A stretch of 64,000 bases of DNA from an uncultured bacterium (GTDB lineage Bacteria; Bacillota_I; Bacilli_A; RFN20; CAG-826): positions 2,170 through 66,169 of the forward strand of contig CASFCI010000005.1 in assembly GCA_949293175.1 (NCBI GenBank), read 5' to 3'. This document shows positions 6,091-12,177 of this stretch, piece after piece. Within the stretch, counting starts at the first letter, position 1, and each line of letters begins with the position of its first letter. The notes under the pieces were generated by a model. The model searched no databases. It was not told the origin of the DNA and saw nothing but the letters and a program-made list of their open reading frames with translations. Both the position numbers and the translations under genes were made by a program.

Positions 6091-6795
6091 ATGGCAAAGA
6101 AAGAGAAAAAACCAAAAGAGCCTATGGCAAAGAAAGCAAAAAATGAGAAAACCAAGAAATTCGCCAAATCCATCCTGGCGGAATTCCGCGCCTTCATCTC
6201 GAAGGGCAACATCCTAGACCTGGCAGTAGGCGTCATCATCGGCGGGGCGTTCAACGCGATCGTGAATGCCTTCACCGCCATATTGCTATCCGTCTGCACC
6301 TGGGGCGTCCCCGGCGGCCTTGCCGGATTGGTCACCGTCCTTCCCCCGGCCACCCCTTCCCAGCGTGTCCCTTCCGATATCCTCATCGGCGGCGAAACGC
6401 TAAAGCAAAGCTATACCGCTTCCGAATGGGCCACGCTGTCTCAGCAGGATGATTTCACCGCCACGATCTCTGGCATGTACACCAAGCACGGCGCCTCCTA
6501 TTTCTATAACGGGGCCGCCATCATCGACTGGGGCGCGTTCATCAACGCCATCATCTCGTTCGTCATAATCGCCTTGACCTTGTTCGTCATCGTCAAGGTG
6601 GTCAAGTACGCTGGCAAGAAGCGCAAGGAACTCGAGGAGAAAGCGAAAGAGGAATACTACAAGCGGCACCCCGAGGAGCGCCCTTTGCCTCCGGTTCAGG
6701 AACCCGCCAAGCCAACACAAGAGGAACTGCTTACCGCCATACTGGAAGAGCTTAAGAAGCAAAACGGCGCTCCTGCGGTTGAGGAGAAGAAATGA
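6091..6795 (+). CDS. mscL: Large-conductance mechanosensitive channel with enlarged extracellular loop
   Basis: EFRAFISKGNILDLAVGVIIGGAF, IDWGAFINAIISFVIIA, EELLTAILEEL. Confidence 0.92.
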   Translation: MAKKEKKPKEPMAKKAKNEKTKKFAKSILAEFRAFISKGNILDLAVGVIIGGAFNAIVNAFTAILLSVCTWGVPGGLAGLVTVLPPATPSQRVPSDILIGGETLKQSYTASEWATLSQQDDFTATISGMYTKHGASYFYNGAAIIDWGAFINAIISFVIIALTLFVIVKVVKYAGKKRKELEEKAKEEYYKRHPEERPLPPVQEPAKPTQEELLTAILEELKKQNGAPAVEEKK

Positions 6796-6801
6796 GGAAA
6801 C

Positions 6802-6827
6802 GGTCGCCTTCAAGGCGGCCTTTTTCT
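6802..6827 (+). terminator. Intrinsic terminator after mscL
   Basis: GGTCGCCT-tca-AGGCGGCC followed by a T-run. Confidence 0.75.
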
Positions 6828-6859
6828 TGAGCTTCAATCCATCTAAAATAGTCAGCATC

Positions 6860-7951
6860 ATGAGTAGACACATCAATTTAGAGAGAATTTCCAACTTCCG
6901 CGACCTCGGCGGGTACGAATGCCGCTACGGGGAAACCAGCTTTGGCGTCCTTTACCGCAGCGCCCGCATTGATTTGGCCAGCGTTGCCGACAAGCAGAAG
7001 CTAACCCAGCTTGGAATCAAGACGATAATCGACCTCCGGGACGATAAGCAGAAATCCGAGCACCCTGATTTCAGCTTGCCGGTCGAAGGGTTTAAGAACA
7101 TCTCGCTGCCGGTGAATGGCAATGGCCGGATCCCGGTTGACCACGAAGATCAGATCGATTCGTATTTGGAGATGCTTGAGGAACCCTATTCGGCCAGGAA
7201 GGTGTTCAAGGCCATCCTCAACGAGGACAAGCCGTTGCTGTTCCATTGCTCGGCTGGCAAAGACCGGACAGGCTGCTTCACGATGGTCCTGCTGCTTCTT
7301 GCTGGCGTATCGATGGATGACATCAACGCCGATTACCTTGCCTCGTTTGCCTATCTGCGCGAGCAAGCCCACGAATGCAAAGGCAAGCTGCCCGATGTCG
7401 TGATAACCCCGAACATCGACTTCATCTTCGAGGTCGTAGATAGGTTCAATGAGCGCTACGGGGACGTAAACGGCTATCTTGAGGCAATAGGGCTAAGCGA
7501 TGACGAGATCGCCGGGCTCGCCTCGATATTGGGCAAGCAGGAAAAGAGCTGCGGCGCCGTACTGTTTAAGGATGGTAAGGTTTTGGTTGAGCATATGCGG
7601 CTCGGCCATTACTCGATTCCCAAGGGTCATGTGGAAAAATCGGACAAAGACGAATTCGACACGGCATTGCGCGAAATAAGGGAGGAAGTGGGGCTGGAAG
7701 CCAAGATCATCCCTGGGTTCCGCCAGACCATTTACTATTCGCCGCGGGATGGCGTGATAAAGCAGGTTGTCTTCTTCGCCGCCGAGGCAAACGAAGGGGA
7801 TATGAGGCTTCAGGAAGAGGAGGTCGCCGACGCCTACTGGATATCGCCCGCCGATGCGATGAGGGTCCTCTCCCATGACTCCGACCGGCTCGTCGTCCGC
7901 AATGCGGCCTATTTCCAGGCCGGCGATTCAGTCAAGAAGGTTGAGGACTAG
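6860..7951 (+). CDS. Cys-dependent (tyrosine/lipid) phosphatase fused to a Nudix hydrolase
   Basis: NFRDLGG, IIDLR and HCSAGKDRTG, then EKSCGAV and the Nudix box GHVEKSDKDEFDTALREIREEVG; start placed at ATG 6860. Confidence 0.88.
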   Translation: MSRHINLERISNFRDLGGYECRYGETSFGVLYRSARIDLASVADKQKLTQLGIKTIIDLRDDKQKSEHPDFSLPVEGFKNISLPVNGNGRIPVDHEDQIDSYLEMLEEPYSARKVFKAILNEDKPLLFHCSAGKDRTGCFTMVLLLLAGVSMDDINADYLASFAYLREQAHECKGKLPDVVITPNIDFIFEVVDRFNERYGDVNGYLEAIGLSDDEIAGLASILGKQEKSCGAVLFKDGKVLVEHMRLGHYSIPKGHVEKSDKDEFDTALREIREEVGLEAKIIPGFRQTIYYSPRDGVIKQVVFFAAEANEGDMRLQEEEVADAYWISPADAMRVLSHDSDRLVVRNAAYFQAGDSVKKVED

Positions 7952-8851
7952 CCTTTCCATCTCGGCAATAAACTTTTTGGGCTGCTCGAAAGCCAGCATA
8001 TGCCCGGCGCCTTTGAATTCCACGAATCCTTTTTTCGGGGCTTTGACCTCGTTAAGGAGATAGTTTTTCGATAGCTCATACGGGGTGATGAAGTCCTCGT
8101 CCCCGGCAAAGACGTAATAGGGGATTCCATAGTTGGCGTTGTCCTCTAAGGTTAGGCCGGTTAGATTGCCATAAACCTTCGATAGGCGCTTTGTGCCTTT
8201 TTTGAAACCGCGCCGCTCAAAATACCCATATTCGCCCGATTTGTTGAACGGGATGATTTCCCTTTCCTCGTAGCTTGGGTAATCCTTCGGCTCAAAGGAT
8301 GGGTAAAGCAAAGAATAGAAAACCCCATATTGCTCAGCACTAGGCTCGCTATCCAAAGGGATGGCATGCAGAAGCTTTAGTTTCTCGCCTTTTAGCTTTT
8401 TCTCGAGCTCGCCATATTGCCAAAGGAAAGTCTTCCTCGTCGAGGCAAGCTGGCCATAGCCGACGTAGGCGCTGAAGTCGGAGGGAGACTTCTGAATTGC
8501 CTTCGATCCGAGATAGCTGCCAAACGACTCGCCGATGACGATCACCTTCTTTGCGCCATGCGATCTCTTTAGCTCCCTGGCCCAGCCTATTACGTCATCG
8601 ATTAGGTTATCGATGCTAAGATCGGCGTCTTTCATGAACGCCTTATACGATCCGCCGGTGCCTCTTTGGTCGTATGCGCATAGTAGGAAATGCTTGGAAA
8701 GGCCAAGCAGGTTGTCCCTTATCTTGTGCCGGTTGGGATTGCCTGGCCCGCCATGGAGGAAAAGCAGGGCAACCTCGTTACCCTCCCCCCAGATGTGGCC
8801 CATCTGCGGGACCCCGTTTATCTTTGCTTTGAATTTGATCCCTTCGTTCAT
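7928..8851 (-). CDS. Alpha/beta hydrolase (proline iminopeptidase-like)
   Basis: LHGGPG, YDQRGTG, GESFG nucleophile elbow, GDEDFIT, GAGH; ATGA overlap with the upstream gene. Confidence 0.85.
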   Translation of the reverse strand: MNEGIKFKAKINGVPQMGHIWGEGNEVALLFLHGGPGNPNRHKIRDNLLGLSKHFLLCAYDQRGTGGSYKAFMKDADLSIDNLIDDVIGWARELKRSHGAKKVIVIGESFGSYLGSKAIQKSPSDFSAYVGYGQLASTRKTFLWQYGELEKKLKGEKLKLLHAIPLDSEPSAEQYGVFYSLLYPSFEPKDYPSYEEREIIPFNKSGEYGYFERRGFKKGTKRLSKVYGNLTGLTLEDNANYGIPYYVFAGDEDFITPYELSKNYLLNEVKAPKKGFVEFKGAGHMLAFEQPKKFIAEMERLVLNLLD

Positions 8852-9735
8852 AATCCAAGGGTTTTGGCTATGTGGGCGCTGTAGTCTTTGGCCACGTTGT
8901 ATCCAGTCACTTCCTCTATGCCTTTTATGAAGGCGTTGGAATTGACCTCGCAAAGCACCGGTTCGCCCTGCTCGCCTATTAGCAAGTCCACCCCGCAGTA
9001 ATCGAGTTCCAATAGCTTCGCGGCTTTCTCGGCCATGTCGATGAATGTCTTTGGTATTTCCACCTTCTCGCCTTTTCCACCTCTAGCCACGTTGGAGCGG
9101 AAGTCGTCTTCGTTGACCCGCTTCATGCCGACGCAGAACCTGCCGCCGATGACGATGACTCGGTAATCAACCCCGCAAGAGGAAGATATAAATTTTTGAT
9201 AAAGTCTAGGAATTGCGTGGAATTTGCATTCAAAATCCTGCAGTTCACCATGGTTTTTGATCAGATATACCCCATTTCCCAGCGAGCCGTAGTTTGTTTT
9301 CGCGACCAACGGATAGCCAAGCTCCGTTGCAATGGCGGCAAGGCTTTCCTCGTCCATCGGATTGCCTTTGTAATCCAAGGATGGCGAAATCGTCTTCGGC
9401 ATTTTTATGCCATGGTTGGACAAAGCGACGTAGGTAAGCATCTTGTCGTCGCATAGTGCGATGGAACGGCTGGAATTGAATAGATGGTATCCAGCCCTTT
9501 CCAAGGCGTAGGAGGCGTATTTGTCTTTGTCGAGGTAGAGCACGAAATCGGCTGGCCCCAAAGCGGTGGAAACCGCTCCGTTTTCCTCAATCCTTATCTT
9601 TGCCTCGTTGGCGCTTCTTAGCTCAAGCGATACCCCCAGCGCGGACAGCTCCTCTTTCATTCTTTGATAGAGGTTTGATATCCCGCCATATAGGTGCGTC
9701 GAATTGACTATGCAGATTCCTTTTTTTGTAACCAC
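8848..9735 (-). CDS. RimK-family ATP-grasp ligase
   Basis: CDDKMLT, KTNYGSLGNGV, DYRVIVIG, FRSNVARGG, YCGVDLL, CEVNSN; GTG start at 9735 chosen, TTG at 9741 is the alternative. Confidence 0.88.
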   Translation of the reverse strand: MVTKKGICIVNSTHLYGGISNLYQRMKEELSALGVSLELRSANEAKIRIEENGAVSTALGPADFVLYLDKDKYASYALERAGYHLFNSSRSIALCDDKMLTYVALSNHGIKMPKTISPSLDYKGNPMDEESLAAIATELGYPLVAKTNYGSLGNGVYLIKNHGELQDFECKFHAIPRLYQKFISSSCGVDYRVIVIGGRFCVGMKRVNEDDFRSNVARGGKGEKVEIPKTFIDMAEKAAKLLELDYCGVDLLIGEQGEPVLCEVNSNAFIKGIEEVTGYNVAKDYSAHIAKTLGL

Positions 9736-9810
9736 GGGCAAATTATGGCTACTAACCGGATAAATTAGAATAGAAAACGCTTAATGTCATAAAAGTGTTA
9801 GAATAATGCC

Positions 9811-11919
9811 ATGAGTATCAAAATCATTCCAATCACCGCCTTGCGCGATACGCAGAAGCTAGAGGAGGAGGTCCTTTCATCCGACTCCCCGATCCATATA
9901 ACCAAGAACGGCTATTCCTCGATGGTCATCATGTCCGAGGAAGCTTATTCTGAGGGAAAGCAAGCCAATGGCCAGAACAACGTTTCCTATCCCGGCCAAA
10001 TCGATGCCGACTTAGACGATCCGCTTGGCTTCGTCAGGGTCAAAGCCGCCGCCTTTCCAATCCACCTCGCCAATCCAAAAGGCAACGTCGAGGAGATAAA
10101 GAAGCAGATTGATGAGGCCATCTCCGAGGGCGTCTCGGTCCTTTGCTTCTCCGAGCTTTGCCTGACCGGATATACCGCGGGCGACCTATTCCTGGATTCG
10201 ACTTTGCTAGATGGCGCCCTAACCGGTTTGAAGGGCCTAATCGATTATTCGTCTGACAAGAACATCGCCTTCTGCGTTGGACTGCCGCTTCGACTTGCCC
10301 ATAAGATCTACAACGTCGCGGCGCTTGTTTCTAACGGCAAGCTCGTCGGCATCGTTCCGAAGCGGTCCATACCTACCTATCAGGAATTCTATGAAGGCCG
10401 CTATTTCAAAGGATATGAGGGGGAAAACGGGTATATCGACCTGTTCGGCGAGCGCGTTCCTTTTGGCAACCAGCTGATTTTCTCCCCGTCGTCCTACCCC
10501 AGCCTAAAGATCGGCATCGAGATCTGCGAGGACCTCTGGGTGCCGAATTCCCCATCGCAGGAGCTTTCGCTGTCTGGGGCGAACTTGATATTGAACCTAT
10601 CGGCTTCCAACGAAACGGTTGGCAAGGCGAGTTATCGCCGCGATTTGGTTGGCATGCAGTCGGCCAAGCTCATCGCGGCCTACCTATATTGCGATGCCGG
10701 CGAGGGCGAATCGACCACCGATTGCGTGTATTCAGCCCACAACATCATCGCCGAAAACGGCGCAATACTCAGTGAATCGAAGCCGTTTGCGTTCCATTCG
10801 GCCATCGCCGAGATCGACGTCGATAAGCTCAATGCCGAGAAAAGGAAGACGAACAGCTTCGACGTATCTAGCTGCCCATCGGTATATTTCCCGCTTCGCC
10901 TATCGACCCCGGAAAACATAAAGAGGCATTACGCCAGGAACCCCTTCATCCCGGAGGAGAAGGAAATAAACCTGGACCGCGTCAACGAGGTCATGGACAT
11001 GCAGATCGCCGGGCTGGTCGGCAGGCTTAAGGCCATAAATTGCCACAAGGTCGTGGTGGGGCTTTCCGGCGGATTGGATTCGACGTTGGCCCTTCTTGTC
11101 GCGGTCGAGGCTTTCAAGAAAATCGGCTATAGCCTCTCCGACATCACCGCCATAACCCTGCCTTGCTTTGGAACCTCGAGAAGGACCCATGACAATGCAG
11201 AGGAGCTTTCCAAAGACCTTGGGGTGTCGTTTAAGGAGATAAGCATCGCCAACACCGTCAAAAGCCATCTAACTGATATTGGCCATCCTTTGGATAATCT
11301 CAACGTGGCCTACGAGAACGCCCAGGCCAGGGAAAGGACCCAGGTATTGATGGATGCGGCCAACGACACCGGCGCCTTGATGATCGGCACCGGCGACCTC
11401 AGCGAGCTTTGCCTCGGCTGGTGCACCTATGGCGGCGACCACATGTCGATGTATGGCGTCAACGCCTCGATACCCAAGACGCTGGTCCGCTACCTATGCC
11501 ATGGCTACGCGATCATGCACCCTGAGGCATCAAAGCCCTTATTGGACATAATCAACACCCCGATCTCGCCTGAGCTTCTCCCGACCAAAAACGGCGAGAT
11601 CGCCCAGAAGACCGAGGATACCATCGGGCCATATGAGCTCCATGATTTCTTCATCTACCACTTCCTGCGGTTCCGCTTCTCTCCCAAGAAGCTCTTCTTC
11701 ATCGCCTGCCTCGCCTACGATGGCATTTACGACAAGGCGACGATAAAGAAATGGCTCCGCAGCTTCTTCAACCGTTTCTTCCATAATCAGTTCAAGCGCA
11801 GCTGCCTGCCGGACGGGCCGAAGGTCGGCTCGGTCGCCATTTCCCCCCGCGGCGATTGGCGGATGCCGTCGGACGCCGACGTTTCCTACTATCTAAAACA
11901 GGTTGATGGGTTAGAATAG
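9811..11919 (+). CDS. nadE: Glutamine-dependent NAD+ synthetase with N-terminal Phd/YefM-type antitoxin domain
   Basis: Nitrilase triad motifs FSEL, VPK, ICEDLW; SGGLDST; ENAQARER; N-terminal IIPITALRD...PIHITKNGYSSMVIMSEEAY. Confidence 0.95.
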   Translation: MSIKIIPITALRDTQKLEEEVLSSDSPIHITKNGYSSMVIMSEEAYSEGKQANGQNNVSYPGQIDADLDDPLGFVRVKAAAFPIHLANPKGNVEEIKKQIDEAISEGVSVLCFSELCLTGYTAGDLFLDSTLLDGALTGLKGLIDYSSDKNIAFCVGLPLRLAHKIYNVAALVSNGKLVGIVPKRSIPTYQEFYEGRYFKGYEGENGYIDLFGERVPFGNQLIFSPSSYPSLKIGIEICEDLWVPNSPSQELSLSGANLILNLSASNETVGKASYRRDLVGMQSAKLIAAYLYCDAGEGESTTDCVYSAHNIIAENGAILSESKPFAFHSAIAEIDVDKLNAEKRKTNSFDVSSCPSVYFPLRLSTPENIKRHYARNPFIPEEKEINLDRVNEVMDMQIAGLVGRLKAINCHKVVVGLSGGLDSTLALLVAVEAFKKIGYSLSDITAITLPCFGTSRRTHDNAEELSKDLGVSFKEISIANTVKSHLTDIGHPLDNLNVAYENAQARERTQVLMDAANDTGALMIGTGDLSELCLGWCTYGGDHMSMYGVNASIPKTLVRYLCHGYAIMHPEASKPLLDIINTPISPELLPTKNGEIAQKTEDTIGPYELHDFFIYHFLRFRFSPKKLFFIACLAYDGIYDKATIKKWLRSFFNRFFHNQFKRSCLPDGPKVGSVAISPRGDWRMPSDADVSYYLKQVDGLE

Positions 11920-11937: not shown

Positions 11938-12177
11938 ATGGCGGACAAAAACACCAAGGTTTACCACATTTCCAAAAGGGCCAGCGATGGGAAGTGGGCC
12001 ATCAAGTTTGCCGGCGGCGAGAAAGCGATCAAGCTTTTCGATACCAAGCAGGAAGCAATGGCCTACGGCGACAGTCTGGCCGGAAACCAAAACGGAATCG
12101 TCCTGGTCCACGCCTCCAAGGGTGCCAAGGCCGGGAAGATACAGAAACAGAAAAGCGCCGGGAAGAACATAAAGTGA
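11938..12177 (+). CDS. Small DUF2188-family protein
   Basis: YHISKR...KWAIKFAGGEKAIKLFDTKQEAMAYG...VLVH pattern; GAGGAG SD. Confidence 0.8.
   Translation: MADKNTKVYHISKRASDGKWAIKFAGGEKAIKLFDTKQEAMAYGDSLAGNQNGIVLVHASKGAKAGKIQKQKSAGKNIK

What the first reader, a model, noticed from the sequence alone, without database searches (positions are those of the whole stretch)
9765..11919. Phd/YefM antitoxin DNA-binding domain fused to NAD synthetase, with no toxin partner
Seen: residues ~1-50 (IIPITALRD...PIHITKNGYSSMVIMSEEAY) match the Phd/YefM antitoxin signature and run through a ~25 aa linker into a complete Gln-dependent NadE. No RelE/Doc/VapC gene is adjacent. The promoter carries repeated motifs: AATG(T/C)CAT at 9783 and 9805, and TTAGAATA at 9765 and 9798. 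Known: Phd domains dimerise and repress their own promoter, and NadE is oligomeric. Inference: a domesticated antitoxin turning NadE into an autoregulating enzyme-repressor of NAD synthesis, a regulator type I do not recognise as described. Alternatively it tethers a trans-encoded toxin to NAD status.
Basis: partly seen in the sequence, partly recalled or inferred. Interest (0 to 1): 0.75.

Follow-up and report, generated by a model that had tools for sequence, protein, structure and literature searches.

The report
Antitoxin-type DNA-binding domain fused to NadE
The only NAD synthetase of this small-genome bacterium carries at its front end a DNA-binding domain borrowed from a toxin-antitoxin system, and a conserved palindrome on its own promoter suggests that the enzyme switches off its own gene.

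Summary
ORF 9811-11919 (702 aa) has three parts. Residues 1-52 are a Phd/YefM-fold domain: Pfam E 2e-6 to 6e-5, below the curated cut-off, and every listed structural match is a Phd/YefM-type antitoxin. Residues 53-72 are an unconserved linker. The rest is a complete glutamine-dependent NadE (NCBIfam 793 bits), the only NAD synthase found in the genome.

No ParE or YoeB toxin was found in the genome, and this is its only Phd-like sequence. The fusion is not a one-off: 62 of 201 genomes sampled from the order have it, and the fused enzymes form one clade.

A palindrome, CATAATTATG, directly abuts an extended -10 box upstream of the fused genes. It is exact in 23 of 59 loci and within one mismatch in 41 of 59. 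It is exact in 0 of 20 unfused nadE genes of the same order. It also precedes some stand-alone Phd-ParE relatives.

The window's own copy (9788-9797, CATAAAAGTG) is degenerate, yet it ranks second of 2.8 million genome positions against the family matrix.

Best reading (about 0.6): a domesticated antitoxin DNA-binding domain makes NadE repress its own, probably leaderless, promoter. No wider NAD regulon and no toxin tethering were seen. DNA binding is untested.

The parts
9781..9804 (+). 24-nt block TTAATGTCATAAAAGTGTTAGAAT, which corresponds to the family motif aTTTgtACATAATTATGcTATAAT (operator plus -10 box)
   Evidence: An unsupervised Gibbs search over 59 upstream regions placed the window's site here, at 14.2 bits. 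With a matrix built without the window's own genus, the site ranks 2nd of 2,822,972 positions in the window's genome.
9788..9797 (.). Degenerate copy (CATAAAAGTG) of the conserved palindrome CATAATTATG; proposed operator core
   Evidence: It has 3 mismatches to the 10-mer. It fits CAYWWWWRTG, and CAYWWWWRTG followed by nTAnnnT occurs only once in the 1.41-Mb genome, here. That pattern was written after seeing this site. No inverted repeat of 7 nt or more was found in 9700-9850.
9796..9804 (+). Extended -10 promoter element TGtTAGAAT
   Evidence: Read directly from the sequence. The same position holds TGnTAnAAT in the relatives. The consensus scan, which requires a -35 box, found no promoter.
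9811..9813 (+). ATG start codon, 6 nt after the -10 box and with no Shine-Dalgarno sequence: probably a leaderless mRNA
   Evidence: In 12 of 51 scored relatives the start codon lies 6 or 9 nt after the -10 box. The transcription start has not been mapped.
9811..9966 (+). Phd/YefM-fold DNA-binding and dimerisation domain (residues 1-52)
   Evidence: Pfam. AlphaFold model with pLDDT 82. Every row listed by Foldseek is a type II antitoxin, nearly all of them named Phd, YefM or a mycobacterial RelB-type partner. Predicted homodimer. P7, I8, L11, R12, K32, N33 and G34 are invariant.
9967..10026 (+). Unconserved flexible linker (residues 53-72)
   Evidence: Mean pairwise identity is 16%, against 47% for the domain and 59% for the core. 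Its length varies between relatives. pLDDT is low.
10027..11919 (+). Glutamine-dependent NAD+ synthetase core: CN-hydrolase glutaminase about 10066-10830, PP-loop synthetase from about 11014; the stop codon is included
   Evidence: NCBIfam NF002730 at 793 bits against a cut-off of 473. Pfam. E115 and K184 are invariant, C239 is nearly invariant, and S419-G-G-L-D-S424 is invariant. It is the only PF02540 match in the genome.
8848..9741 (-). Divergent RimK-like ATP-grasp gene that shares the 69-bp intergenic region, so it might be co-regulated
   Evidence: Pfam RimK, 3.4e-33. The same neighbour is present in 5 of 30 loci (L083 = the window, L087, L088, L092, L105).

Best explanation
The gene encodes the cell's only NAD+ synthetase (glutamine-dependent NadE). 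It carries at its N-terminus the DNA-binding and dimerisation half of a Phd/YefM-type antitoxin.

Shown here:
- The domain has the Phd/YefM fold and is under purifying selection.
- It has lost the toxin-binding tail and has no toxin partner.
- The fusion is inherited across an order of small-genome Bacilli.
- The fused genes, and some stand-alone Phd-ParE relatives, carry a palindrome of the CATAATTATG type directly abutting an extended -10 box. Unfused nadE genes of the same order do not.

Inferred:
- The domain dimerises and binds this palindrome, which blocks RNA polymerase, so NadE represses its own transcription. The promoter and operator probably came in together with the antitoxin gene.
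- The multimeric enzyme body would link several DNA-binding dimers, which is the role the toxin plays in a toxin-antitoxin operon.

In this window the mRNA is probably leaderless. The operator is a weakened variant (CATAAAAGTG), so repression may be weaker here than in the relatives.
For: Domain identity:
- Pfam E is 2e-6 to 6e-5, and 23 of 24 N-terminal pieces match PF02604 at E <= 0.01.
- A profile of the domain against PDB sequences finds Rv2865 at 4.4e-4.
- Every row listed by Foldseek is a type II antitoxin, nearly all named Phd, YefM or a mycobacterial RelB-type partner, with probability 0.84-1.00 and TM 0.52-0.77.
- hhalign places K32 on YefM R31. R31 and R10 are essential for YefM DNA binding according to PMC4803016 (passages read).
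- Homodimer prediction: score 0.46, best of 3 controls 0.00. That mark was reached by 20 of 30 proteins solved as pairs of one chain and by 1 of 23 solved as single chains. The runs share at least 87% of contacts and partner pLDDT is at least 68.

Conservation:
- 119 of the 120 listed homologues start with the domain.
- 62 of 201 genomes of the order have a fused frame of 600 aa or more (counted by hand).
- Mean pairwise identity is 47% in the domain against 16% in the linker.

Operator:
- The exact 10-mer is present in 23 of 59 upstream regions, and within 1 mismatch in 41 of 59. Shuffles give 0.04% and 1.6%. Other windows of the same loci give 0 and 1.4% of 1080.
- An unsupervised motif search returned the palindrome plus the -10 box.
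- Among 20 unfused nadE genes of the same order, 0 have the exact 10-mer and the highest matrix score is 7.5 bits. 51 of 59 fused loci score 14 bits or more.
- Of 22 exact 17-mer matches in 201 genomes, 13 lie at fused nadE genes and 2 at stand-alone Phd relatives. The reversed control pattern has 0 matches.
- The window's site ranks 2nd of 2.82 million positions.

Origin:
- The stand-alone relatives L144 and L151 are followed by ParE toxin genes.
- The window's domain is 48% identical to the L144 antitoxin.
- All 57 fused cores fall in one clade with support 99. Two unfused sequences lie inside that clade, and the one with DNA in hand (L157) lacks the motif.

No competitor:
- The NadE domain is the only PF02604 match in the genome.
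Against: - No binding or expression data exist. No RNA run was listed.
- The Pfam score is below the curated cut-off.
- The window's own site has 3 mismatches in the 10-mer and is not an inverted repeat.
- 8 of 59 fused loci score under 14 bits against the 24-nt matrix, although two of them (L084, L092) hold an exact 10-mer that the matrix misses.
- 7 of the 22 exact 17-mers lie elsewhere. 5 of those are in genomes with no detected Phd relative, so the sequence can also occur as an ordinary AT-rich promoter.
- The motif was defined on the same loci in which it was then counted, and related genomes are not independent samples.
- The dimer prediction may pass from memory of solved Phd and YefM dimers.
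- hhalign did not cover R12, so its equivalence to YefM R10 is inferred.
- The tree is FastTree only, and the fused rows were chosen as the best hits to the query.
Confidence: 0.6

Rival explanations
1. The domain serves the enzyme itself, as an extra dimerisation or assembly module or as a stabiliser, and does not bind DNA. The conserved upstream block would then be a strong promoter, or the site of another factor.
For: The predicted interface is a dimer interface. 7 of the 22 exact 17-mers lie away from Phd-type genes, 5 of them in genomes without a Phd relative. The block contains two -10-like hexamers.
Against: The palindrome travels with the domain. It is present at stand-alone Phd genes (L144, L145, L217) and absent from 20 unfused nadE genes of the same order. 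K32 lines up with YefM R31, a residue essential for DNA binding, and is invariant; R12, inferred to match R10, is invariant too. Spacer sequence upstream of a -10 box is not normally conserved (general knowledge).
Confidence: 0.17
2. The domain makes NadE a protease substrate, as antitoxins are, so that the enzyme level is set by regulated degradation.
For: Antitoxins of this family are labile (general knowledge). The linker is disordered.
Against: Nothing tested here bears on stability. It does not explain the conserved operator. The part of an antitoxin that is usually labile, the C-terminal tail, is missing here.
Confidence: 0.06
3. The domain still works as an antitoxin or tether for a toxin encoded elsewhere.
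For: Close stand-alone relatives pair with ParE toxins.
Against: The Pfam match stops at profile position 45 of 74, and the tail is replaced by an unconserved linker. In the 97%-complete genome there is no ParE match and no significant YoeB match (E 0.34). The only Fic match is a 423-aa frame, not a small Doc-sized protein.
Confidence: 0.03
4. The domain is a neutral remnant of a toxin-antitoxin insertion upstream of nadE.
For: The window's operator is degenerate.
Against: Seven residues are invariant across 57 sequences whose cores are only 59% identical on average. The adjoining linker is at 16% identity and varies in length. The fusion is retained in 62 of 201 genomes.
Confidence: 0.03

Closest known systems
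Phd (phage P1) and YefM (E. coli) type II antitoxins, N-terminal domain
   Same: The same fold and the same predicted dimer through a shared beta-sheet. A basic residue sits at the YefM R31 position. The palindromic operator overlaps the -10 region, and the TGTACA core reported for YefM operators is present in 14 of 51 sites here (PMC4803016, passages read).
   Different: There is no C-terminal toxin-binding segment, no toxin gene, and no toxin-antitoxin operon. The domain is covalently joined to an essential enzyme. The operator core is CATAATTATG.
Stand-alone Phd-ParE pairs of the same order (L144, L151)
   Same: 48% identity to the window's domain over 46 aa. L144 has a palindrome of the same type at its promoter.
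   Different: These are 85-90 aa proteins with a C-terminal tail, each followed by a ParE toxin gene (PF05016, 37-39 bits).
Enzyme-repressors ('trigger enzymes'): PutA, BirA, NadR (recalled) and archaeal RbkR (PMC5397151, search listing only)
   Same: A small DNA-binding domain is fused to an active metabolic enzyme, and the protein acts on the promoter of its own pathway.
   Different: The DNA-binding fold differs (RHH, wHTH or HTH in those proteins). No effector is known here. The apparent target is only the gene itself, not a pathway regulon.
Known NAD regulators NiaR, NrtR, NadR (recalled; NrtR in PMC2330246, search listing only)
   Same: Transcriptional control of NAD biosynthesis genes.
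   Different: The DNA-binding domains and operators are unrelated. Those proteins are dedicated regulators or salvage enzymes, and none of them is NadE.
Canonical glutamine-dependent NadE (NCBIfam PRK02628 type)
   Same: Full-length match, with the catalytic motifs conserved.
   Different: About 71 extra N-terminal residues. Unfused forms of 625-680 aa coexist in the same order.

Membership tests
Phd/YefM antitoxin domain (PF02604) | Sequence match at Pfam's curated cut-off | tested here: inconclusive
   The window scores 23.2-27.8 bits against a cut-off of 29.8, with E from 2e-6 to 6e-5. Only profile positions 2-45 of 74 exist in this protein. 23 of 24 relatives' N-terminal pieces match at E <= 0.01, and 20 of the 120 listed homologues carry the precomputed PF02604 label.
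Phd/YefM antitoxin domain (PF02604) | Beta-alpha-alpha-beta-beta-alpha fold | tested here: met
   AlphaFold model with pLDDT 82. Every row listed by Foldseek is a type II antitoxin, nearly all named Phd, YefM or a mycobacterial RelB-type partner, with TM 0.52-0.77. E-values are only about 1e-2 because the domain is short.
Phd/YefM antitoxin domain (PF02604) | Homodimer | tested here: met
   This is a prediction only. Score 0.46 against a best control of 0.00. The mark was reached by 20 of 30 solved homomers and 1 of 23 solved single chains. At least 87% of contacts are shared between runs and pLDDT is at least 68. The pass may reflect memory of solved Phd and YefM dimers.
Type II toxin-antitoxin system (Phd-Doc, YefM-YoeB, Phd-ParE) | C-terminal toxin-binding segment of the antitoxin | tested here: not met
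   The Pfam match ends at profile position 45 of 74. Residues 53-72 are an unconserved linker leading into NadE.
Type II toxin-antitoxin system (Phd-Doc, YefM-YoeB, Phd-ParE) | Cognate toxin gene, adjacent or elsewhere in the genome | tested here: not met
   No toxin gene is adjacent. In the genome there is no ParE match, YoeB reaches only E 0.34, and the one Fic match is a 423-aa frame. The genome is 97% complete.
Type II toxin-antitoxin system (Phd-Doc, YefM-YoeB, Phd-ParE) | Palindromic operator at its own promoter | tested here: met
   Met at the sequence level only, across the relatives. The window's own copy is degenerate. Binding cannot be tested with these tools.
Glutamine-dependent NAD+ synthetase (NadE, NF002730) | Full-length match above the curated cut-off | tested here: met
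   793 bits against a cut-off of 473, covering residues 72-699.
Glutamine-dependent NAD+ synthetase (NadE, NF002730) | Glutaminase Glu-Lys-Cys triad and the PP-loop SGGxDS motif | tested here: met
   E115 and K184 are invariant, C239 is at least 90% conserved, and S419-G-G-L-D-S424 is invariant in 57 sequences. Assigning these residues to the catalytic triad rests on recalled knowledge of the family.
Glutamine-dependent NAD+ synthetase (NadE, NF002730) | Enzymatic activity | not testable with these tools
   It is the only PF02540 match in the genome, so activity is expected.
Enzyme-repressor (trigger enzyme) | DNA-binding domain and an intact enzyme in one polypeptide | tested here: met
Enzyme-repressor (trigger enzyme) | DNA binding that responds to the enzyme's ligands | not testable with these tools
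   No data.

The most novel reading that the evidence does not exclude
NadE here is a metabolite-gated trigger enzyme built from toxin-antitoxin parts. The multimeric synthetase takes over the toxin's role as the bridge between Phd dimers on tandem operator sites. Substrate or product occupancy (NaAD, ATP, glutamine, NAD) changes that geometry. [quoted passage not shown]
Probability: 0.2. Interest if true: 0.8.

Novelty: new variant of a known kind. Interest (0 to 1): 0.62.

Why it matters
This would be a clear case of a toxin-antitoxin module being taken apart and reused. The antitoxin's DNA-binding half, together with its operator, would have been turned into a self-regulating switch on an essential housekeeping enzyme.

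It would add a fourth, unrelated solution to the control of NAD synthesis, besides NadR, NiaR and NrtR. It would also add a new DNA-binding fold to the enzyme-repressors.

The hypothesis can be tested directly with a 60-aa domain and a 10-bp palindrome. The lineage is uncultured, with small genomes that hold few recognisable regulators.

Four searches of the held library found no paper describing this fusion. Databases label these proteins simply as 'NAD(+) synthase'.

Tried and rejected
- **Wider regulon, own genome.** The other top matrix hits in the window's genome lie next to lipoprotein and unrelated genes.
- **Wider regulon, five relatives.** The exact 10-mer occurs 3-4 times per genome. 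The copies away from nadE are mostly inside coding regions or overlap start codons.
- **NAD kinase as a second target.** 14 of 18 upstream regions scanned, out of 19 NAD-kinase loci, score under 8 bits. Only one genus has a similar site.
- **The search for related loci in genome contigs.** It returned almost only unfused NadE genes, mostly labelled as Clostridia, because its search patterns came from the enzyme core. These loci served only as an outgroup.
- **Rfam.** No RNA family matches 9500-10100 at E <= 1.
- **Promoter scan.** The consensus scan found no -35/-10 promoter. The proposed promoter is of the extended -10 type, which that scan does not model.
- **Earlier findings of this scan.** Nothing came back for this sequence.
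- **P0122.** The top hit of the representative search, with six matched stretches, is an unrelated tandem-repeat protein and a false positive.
- **Trimming by a GF[VI]R motif.** It failed for many rows and was replaced by an HMM envelope.
- **My first regular expression for the domain.** It was mis-specified and found nothing; it was corrected.
Full report
**1. What is in the window.**
ORF 9811..11919 (+) encodes 702 aa. Pfam finds CN_hydrolase (residues 86-340, 1.5e-17) and NAD_synthase (402-568, 6e-26). It also finds PhdYeFM_antitox on residues 4-46, aligned to profile positions 2-45 of 74. For that match E is 5.8e-5 for the whole protein, 4.3e-6 for the first 80 aa and 2.1e-6 for the first 62 aa. 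The scores of 23-28 bits are below the curated 29.8 bits. NCBIfam's NAD(+) synthase equivalog NF002730 scores 793 bits against a cut-off of 473 and begins at residue 72. So about 71 residues are added to a complete glutamine-dependent NadE. There is no in-frame ATG, GTG or TTG between codons 41 and 132. A start 'near 10020' is therefore impossible, and the enzyme cannot be made whole without translating the extra domain.

**2. The extra domain has the Phd/YefM fold.**
- A 24-row alignment of N-terminal pieces (A2) has P7, I8, L11, R12, K32, N33 and G34 invariant. The same residues are invariant in 57 full-length homologues (A1).
- 23 of the 24 pieces match PF02604 at E <= 0.01, the best at 3.2e-8.
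- The A2 profile finds Rv2865, the antitoxin chain of the M. tuberculosis RelBE2 complex, among PDB sequences at 4.4e-4. Phd follows at 0.23.
- The AlphaFold model (pLDDT 82.3) is beta-alpha-alpha-beta-beta-alpha.
- Every row that Foldseek lists is a type II antitoxin, nearly all of them named Phd, YefM or a mycobacterial RelB-type partner. Phd and YoeB-YefM bound to operator DNA are among them. Probability is 0.84-1.00, TM 0.52-0.77 and rmsd 1.5-3.3 A. E-values are only about 1e-2, as expected for about 50 residues.
- hhalign of A2 against E. coli YefM aligns residues 24-51 with YefM 23-50, which puts K32 on YefM R31. R10 and R31 are reported as essential for YefM DNA binding (PMC4803016, passages read). 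That R12 matches R10 is my inference; the alignment did not reach it.
- Two copies of the domain are predicted to pair through strand 36-43. The score is 0.46 against a best control of 0.00. That mark was reached by 20 of 30 solved homomers and 1 of 23 solved single chains. The runs share at least 87% of contacts and pLDDT is at least 68. Solved Phd and YefM dimers exist, so this shows likeness and is not independent proof.

**3. It is not an antitoxin any more.**
- The toxin-binding C-terminal part is absent. Residues 53-72 are a linker with 16% mean pairwise identity, against 47% for the domain and 59% for the core. The linker also varies in length: the distance from KNG to GFVR is 35-77 residues. 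It has low pLDDT in the full-length model.
- The neighbours are a divergent RimK-like ATP-grasp gene and a DUF2188 gene.
- The genome is 1.41 Mb and 97% complete. The only PF02604 match is this gene. There is no ParE match and no significant YoeB match (E 0.34). The only Fic match is a 423-aa frame.
- This is also the only PF02540 match in the genome, so it is the housekeeping NadE.
- E115, K184, C239 and the SGGLDS loop are conserved.

**4. The fusion is old and conserved.**
- 119 of the 120 listed homologues (50-95% identical, about 700-740 aa) begin with the domain. The exception is P0107. Only 20 of the 120 carry a precomputed PF02604 label, and sources name them 'NAD(+) synthase' from Bacilli or Erysipelotrichaceae MAGs.
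- I searched 201 genomes sampled from the window's order with the A2 profile. 76 have a match, and 62 have it at the head of an open frame of 600 aa or more (my count from the table). Of the other 14 genomes, 12 have only short frames of 77-126 aa. One, G074, has a frame cut by a contig end. One, G104, has an in-frame stop.
- The same order also holds short ammonia-type NadE genes (about 250 aa) and unfused long NadE genes (about 625-680 aa).
- I built a FastTree of the enzyme core with the domain and linker removed. It has 101 rows: 57 fused, 18 unfused loci of the order plus P0107, and 25 from other taxa. One partial row (O_L062) and one low-coverage locus (L205) were left out.
- All 57 fused rows fall in one clade with support 99. 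Two unfused rows lie inside it, namely L192 (genome G126) and P0107. That makes 3 changes, which fits one gain and two losses.
- Caveats: the fused rows were picked as the best hits to the query, there is no bootstrap, and the root is at the midpoint.

**5. A conserved palindrome sits on the promoter.**
- Upstream regions of the fused genes are otherwise unalignable, yet they share one block. An unsupervised Gibbs search of 59 distinct 100-nt upstream regions returned aTTTgtACATAATTATGcTATAAT. These came from 62 loci; a stand-alone locus, a duplicate and a contig-edge locus were dropped.
- The block is the 10-bp perfect palindrome CATAATTATG, whose last two bases are the TG of an extended -10 box, followed by TATAAT.
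- The exact 10-mer is present in 23 of 59 regions, and within one mismatch in 41 of 59. Shuffled upstream regions give 0.04% and 1.6%. The 1080 other 100-nt windows of the same loci give 0 and 1.4%.
- 51 of 59 sites score 14 bits or more. 14 of those 51 carry TGTACA, the core of YefM operators, just to the left. 22 of the 51 continue with AATG after the -10 box, which gives a second, half-matching site 11 bp downstream.
- As a control I examined 20 of the roughly 40 unfused long nadE genes of the same order that one search lists. None has the exact 10-mer and 2 have one mismatch. The highest matrix score is 7.5 bits. One of the 20 (L156) has a masked start.
- The unfused gene that nests inside the fused clade (L157, genome G126) has no site: 5 mismatches and -10.9 bits.
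- Across all 201 genomes the 17-mer CATAATTATGNTANAAT occurs 22 times in 20 genomes. The reversed control pattern occurs 0 times. 13 matches lie at fused nadE promoters and 2 at promoters of stand-alone Phd relatives.
- The other 7 matches lie before a TetR-like gene, an NAD kinase gene, a lipoprotein gene and a Tex-like gene, inside two coding regions, and at one place with no ORF. 5 of these 7 are in genomes with no detected Phd relative. The association with Phd-type genes is therefore very strong but not exclusive.

**6. Where the domain came from.**
- Stand-alone 85-90 aa relatives in the same order match the A2 profile at about 1e-23 down to 1e-15.
- Two of the eight I looked at (L144, L151) are followed by overlapping ParE toxin genes (PF05016, 37-39 bits). 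The others are orphans.
- The window's domain is 48% identical to the L144 antitoxin over 46 aa.
- L144, L145 and L217 carry the same type of palindrome at their promoters.
- The simplest history is that the front half of a Phd-ParE antitoxin gene, with its self-repressed promoter, became joined to nadE, and the toxin was lost.

**7. The window's own promoter.**
- The homologous block is 9781-9804, TTAATGTCATAAAAGTGTTAGAAT. The core CATAAAAGTG (9788-9797) has 3 mismatches, and no inverted repeat is detected. TGtTAGAAT (9796-9804) is the extended -10 box.
- The ATG follows 6 nt later with no Shine-Dalgarno sequence. 12 of the 51 scored relatives have the start codon 6 or 9 nt after the -10 box. 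This looks like a leaderless mRNA, but it is not shown.
- With a matrix built from 56 sites that excludes the window's genus, this site ranks 2nd of 2,822,972 positions in the genome.
- A same-genus genome (L130) has the similar variant GTCATTATAGTG, and another (L092) has two tandem near-perfect sites.
- The loosened pattern CAYWWWWRTG followed by nTAnnnT occurs once in the genome, here. I wrote that pattern after seeing the site.
TTAGAATA at 9798 is the -10 box. AATGTCAT at 9783 covers the left half-site. AATGCCAT at 9805 is the stretch from the -10 box to the start codon. TTAGAATA at 9765 has no counterpart in the conserved upstream block of the relatives.

**8. Scope of regulation.**
- I found no NAD regulon. 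The other best matrix hits in the genome lie beside lipoprotein and unrelated genes.
- In five relatives the 10-mer occurs 3-4 times per genome, and away from nadE mostly inside genes.
- NAD kinase promoters lack the site in 14 of the 18 upstream regions scanned. One genus has a similar palindrome plus -10 box in 4 of 4 genomes.
- The design therefore resembles antitoxin-style self-repression and not a pathway regulator.

**9. Reading and standing.**
The most likely mechanism (about 0.6) is autorepression of nadE by its own N-terminal Phd-fold domain. The enzyme's multimeric body would supply the bridging that a toxin supplies in toxin-antitoxin operons. That last step, and any ligand control, are inference.

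Four literature searches found no description of this fusion in the held library. Subscription journals are mostly missing from it. The general idea of an enzyme that represses its own gene is known (BirA, PutA and NadR recalled; RbkR seen in a listing only). I therefore class this as a new variant of a known kind.

Noticed in passing
window 6779-7951 (+): One ORF joins a Y_phosphatase3 tyrosine-phosphatase-like domain (E 1e-49) to a C-terminal NUDIX domain (E 4e-13). There is also a weak match to 'PTP fused to NAD kinase'. It may bear on nucleotide or NAD-derivative turnover.
   Followed up: no
L241 (G110:C74), L240, L235, L236: In one genus of the order, all four genomes examined have a similar palindrome plus -10 box (GTCATAATTATGATACAAT, or 1-2 mismatches from it) 20-35 nt upstream of the NAD kinase gene. 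The 14 NAD kinase upstream regions scanned in other genera lack it.
   Followed up: partly
P0238 (174 aa): The same subfamily of N-terminal domain is fused to an MNT-type nucleotidyltransferase domain (Polbeta/NTP_transf_2). This is another fusion of this DNA-binding module.
   Followed up: partly
L147 (G013:C3) and L109 (G049:C136): A stand-alone protein of about 60 aa consists of the N-domain only. It has no tail, no toxin gene and no nadE gene beside it. These genomes have the short ammonia-type NadE.
   Followed up: partly
G000 contig C4, about 92830: The best matrix hit in the window's genome is a perfect 16-bp palindrome, TTACATATATATGTAA. It lies between two lipoprotein-like genes, just after a terminator-like hairpin. 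Its role is unknown.
   Followed up: partly
L186 (G147:C12) and L225 (G025:C1): The exact 10-mer or 17-mer lies just upstream of a Tex-like (S1-domain) gene in two genomes of different families. One of them has no Phd relative.
   Followed up: no
window 8848-9741 (-): A RimK-like ATP-grasp gene lies divergent from nadE with only 69 bp between them. This pairing is kept in 5 of 30 loci, the window included. The palindromic site could act on both genes.
   Followed up: partly
window 11911-11918: A third copy of TTAGAATA overlaps the nadE stop codon, 20 nt before the DUF2188 gene at 11938. It may be the -10 box of that gene.
   Followed up: no
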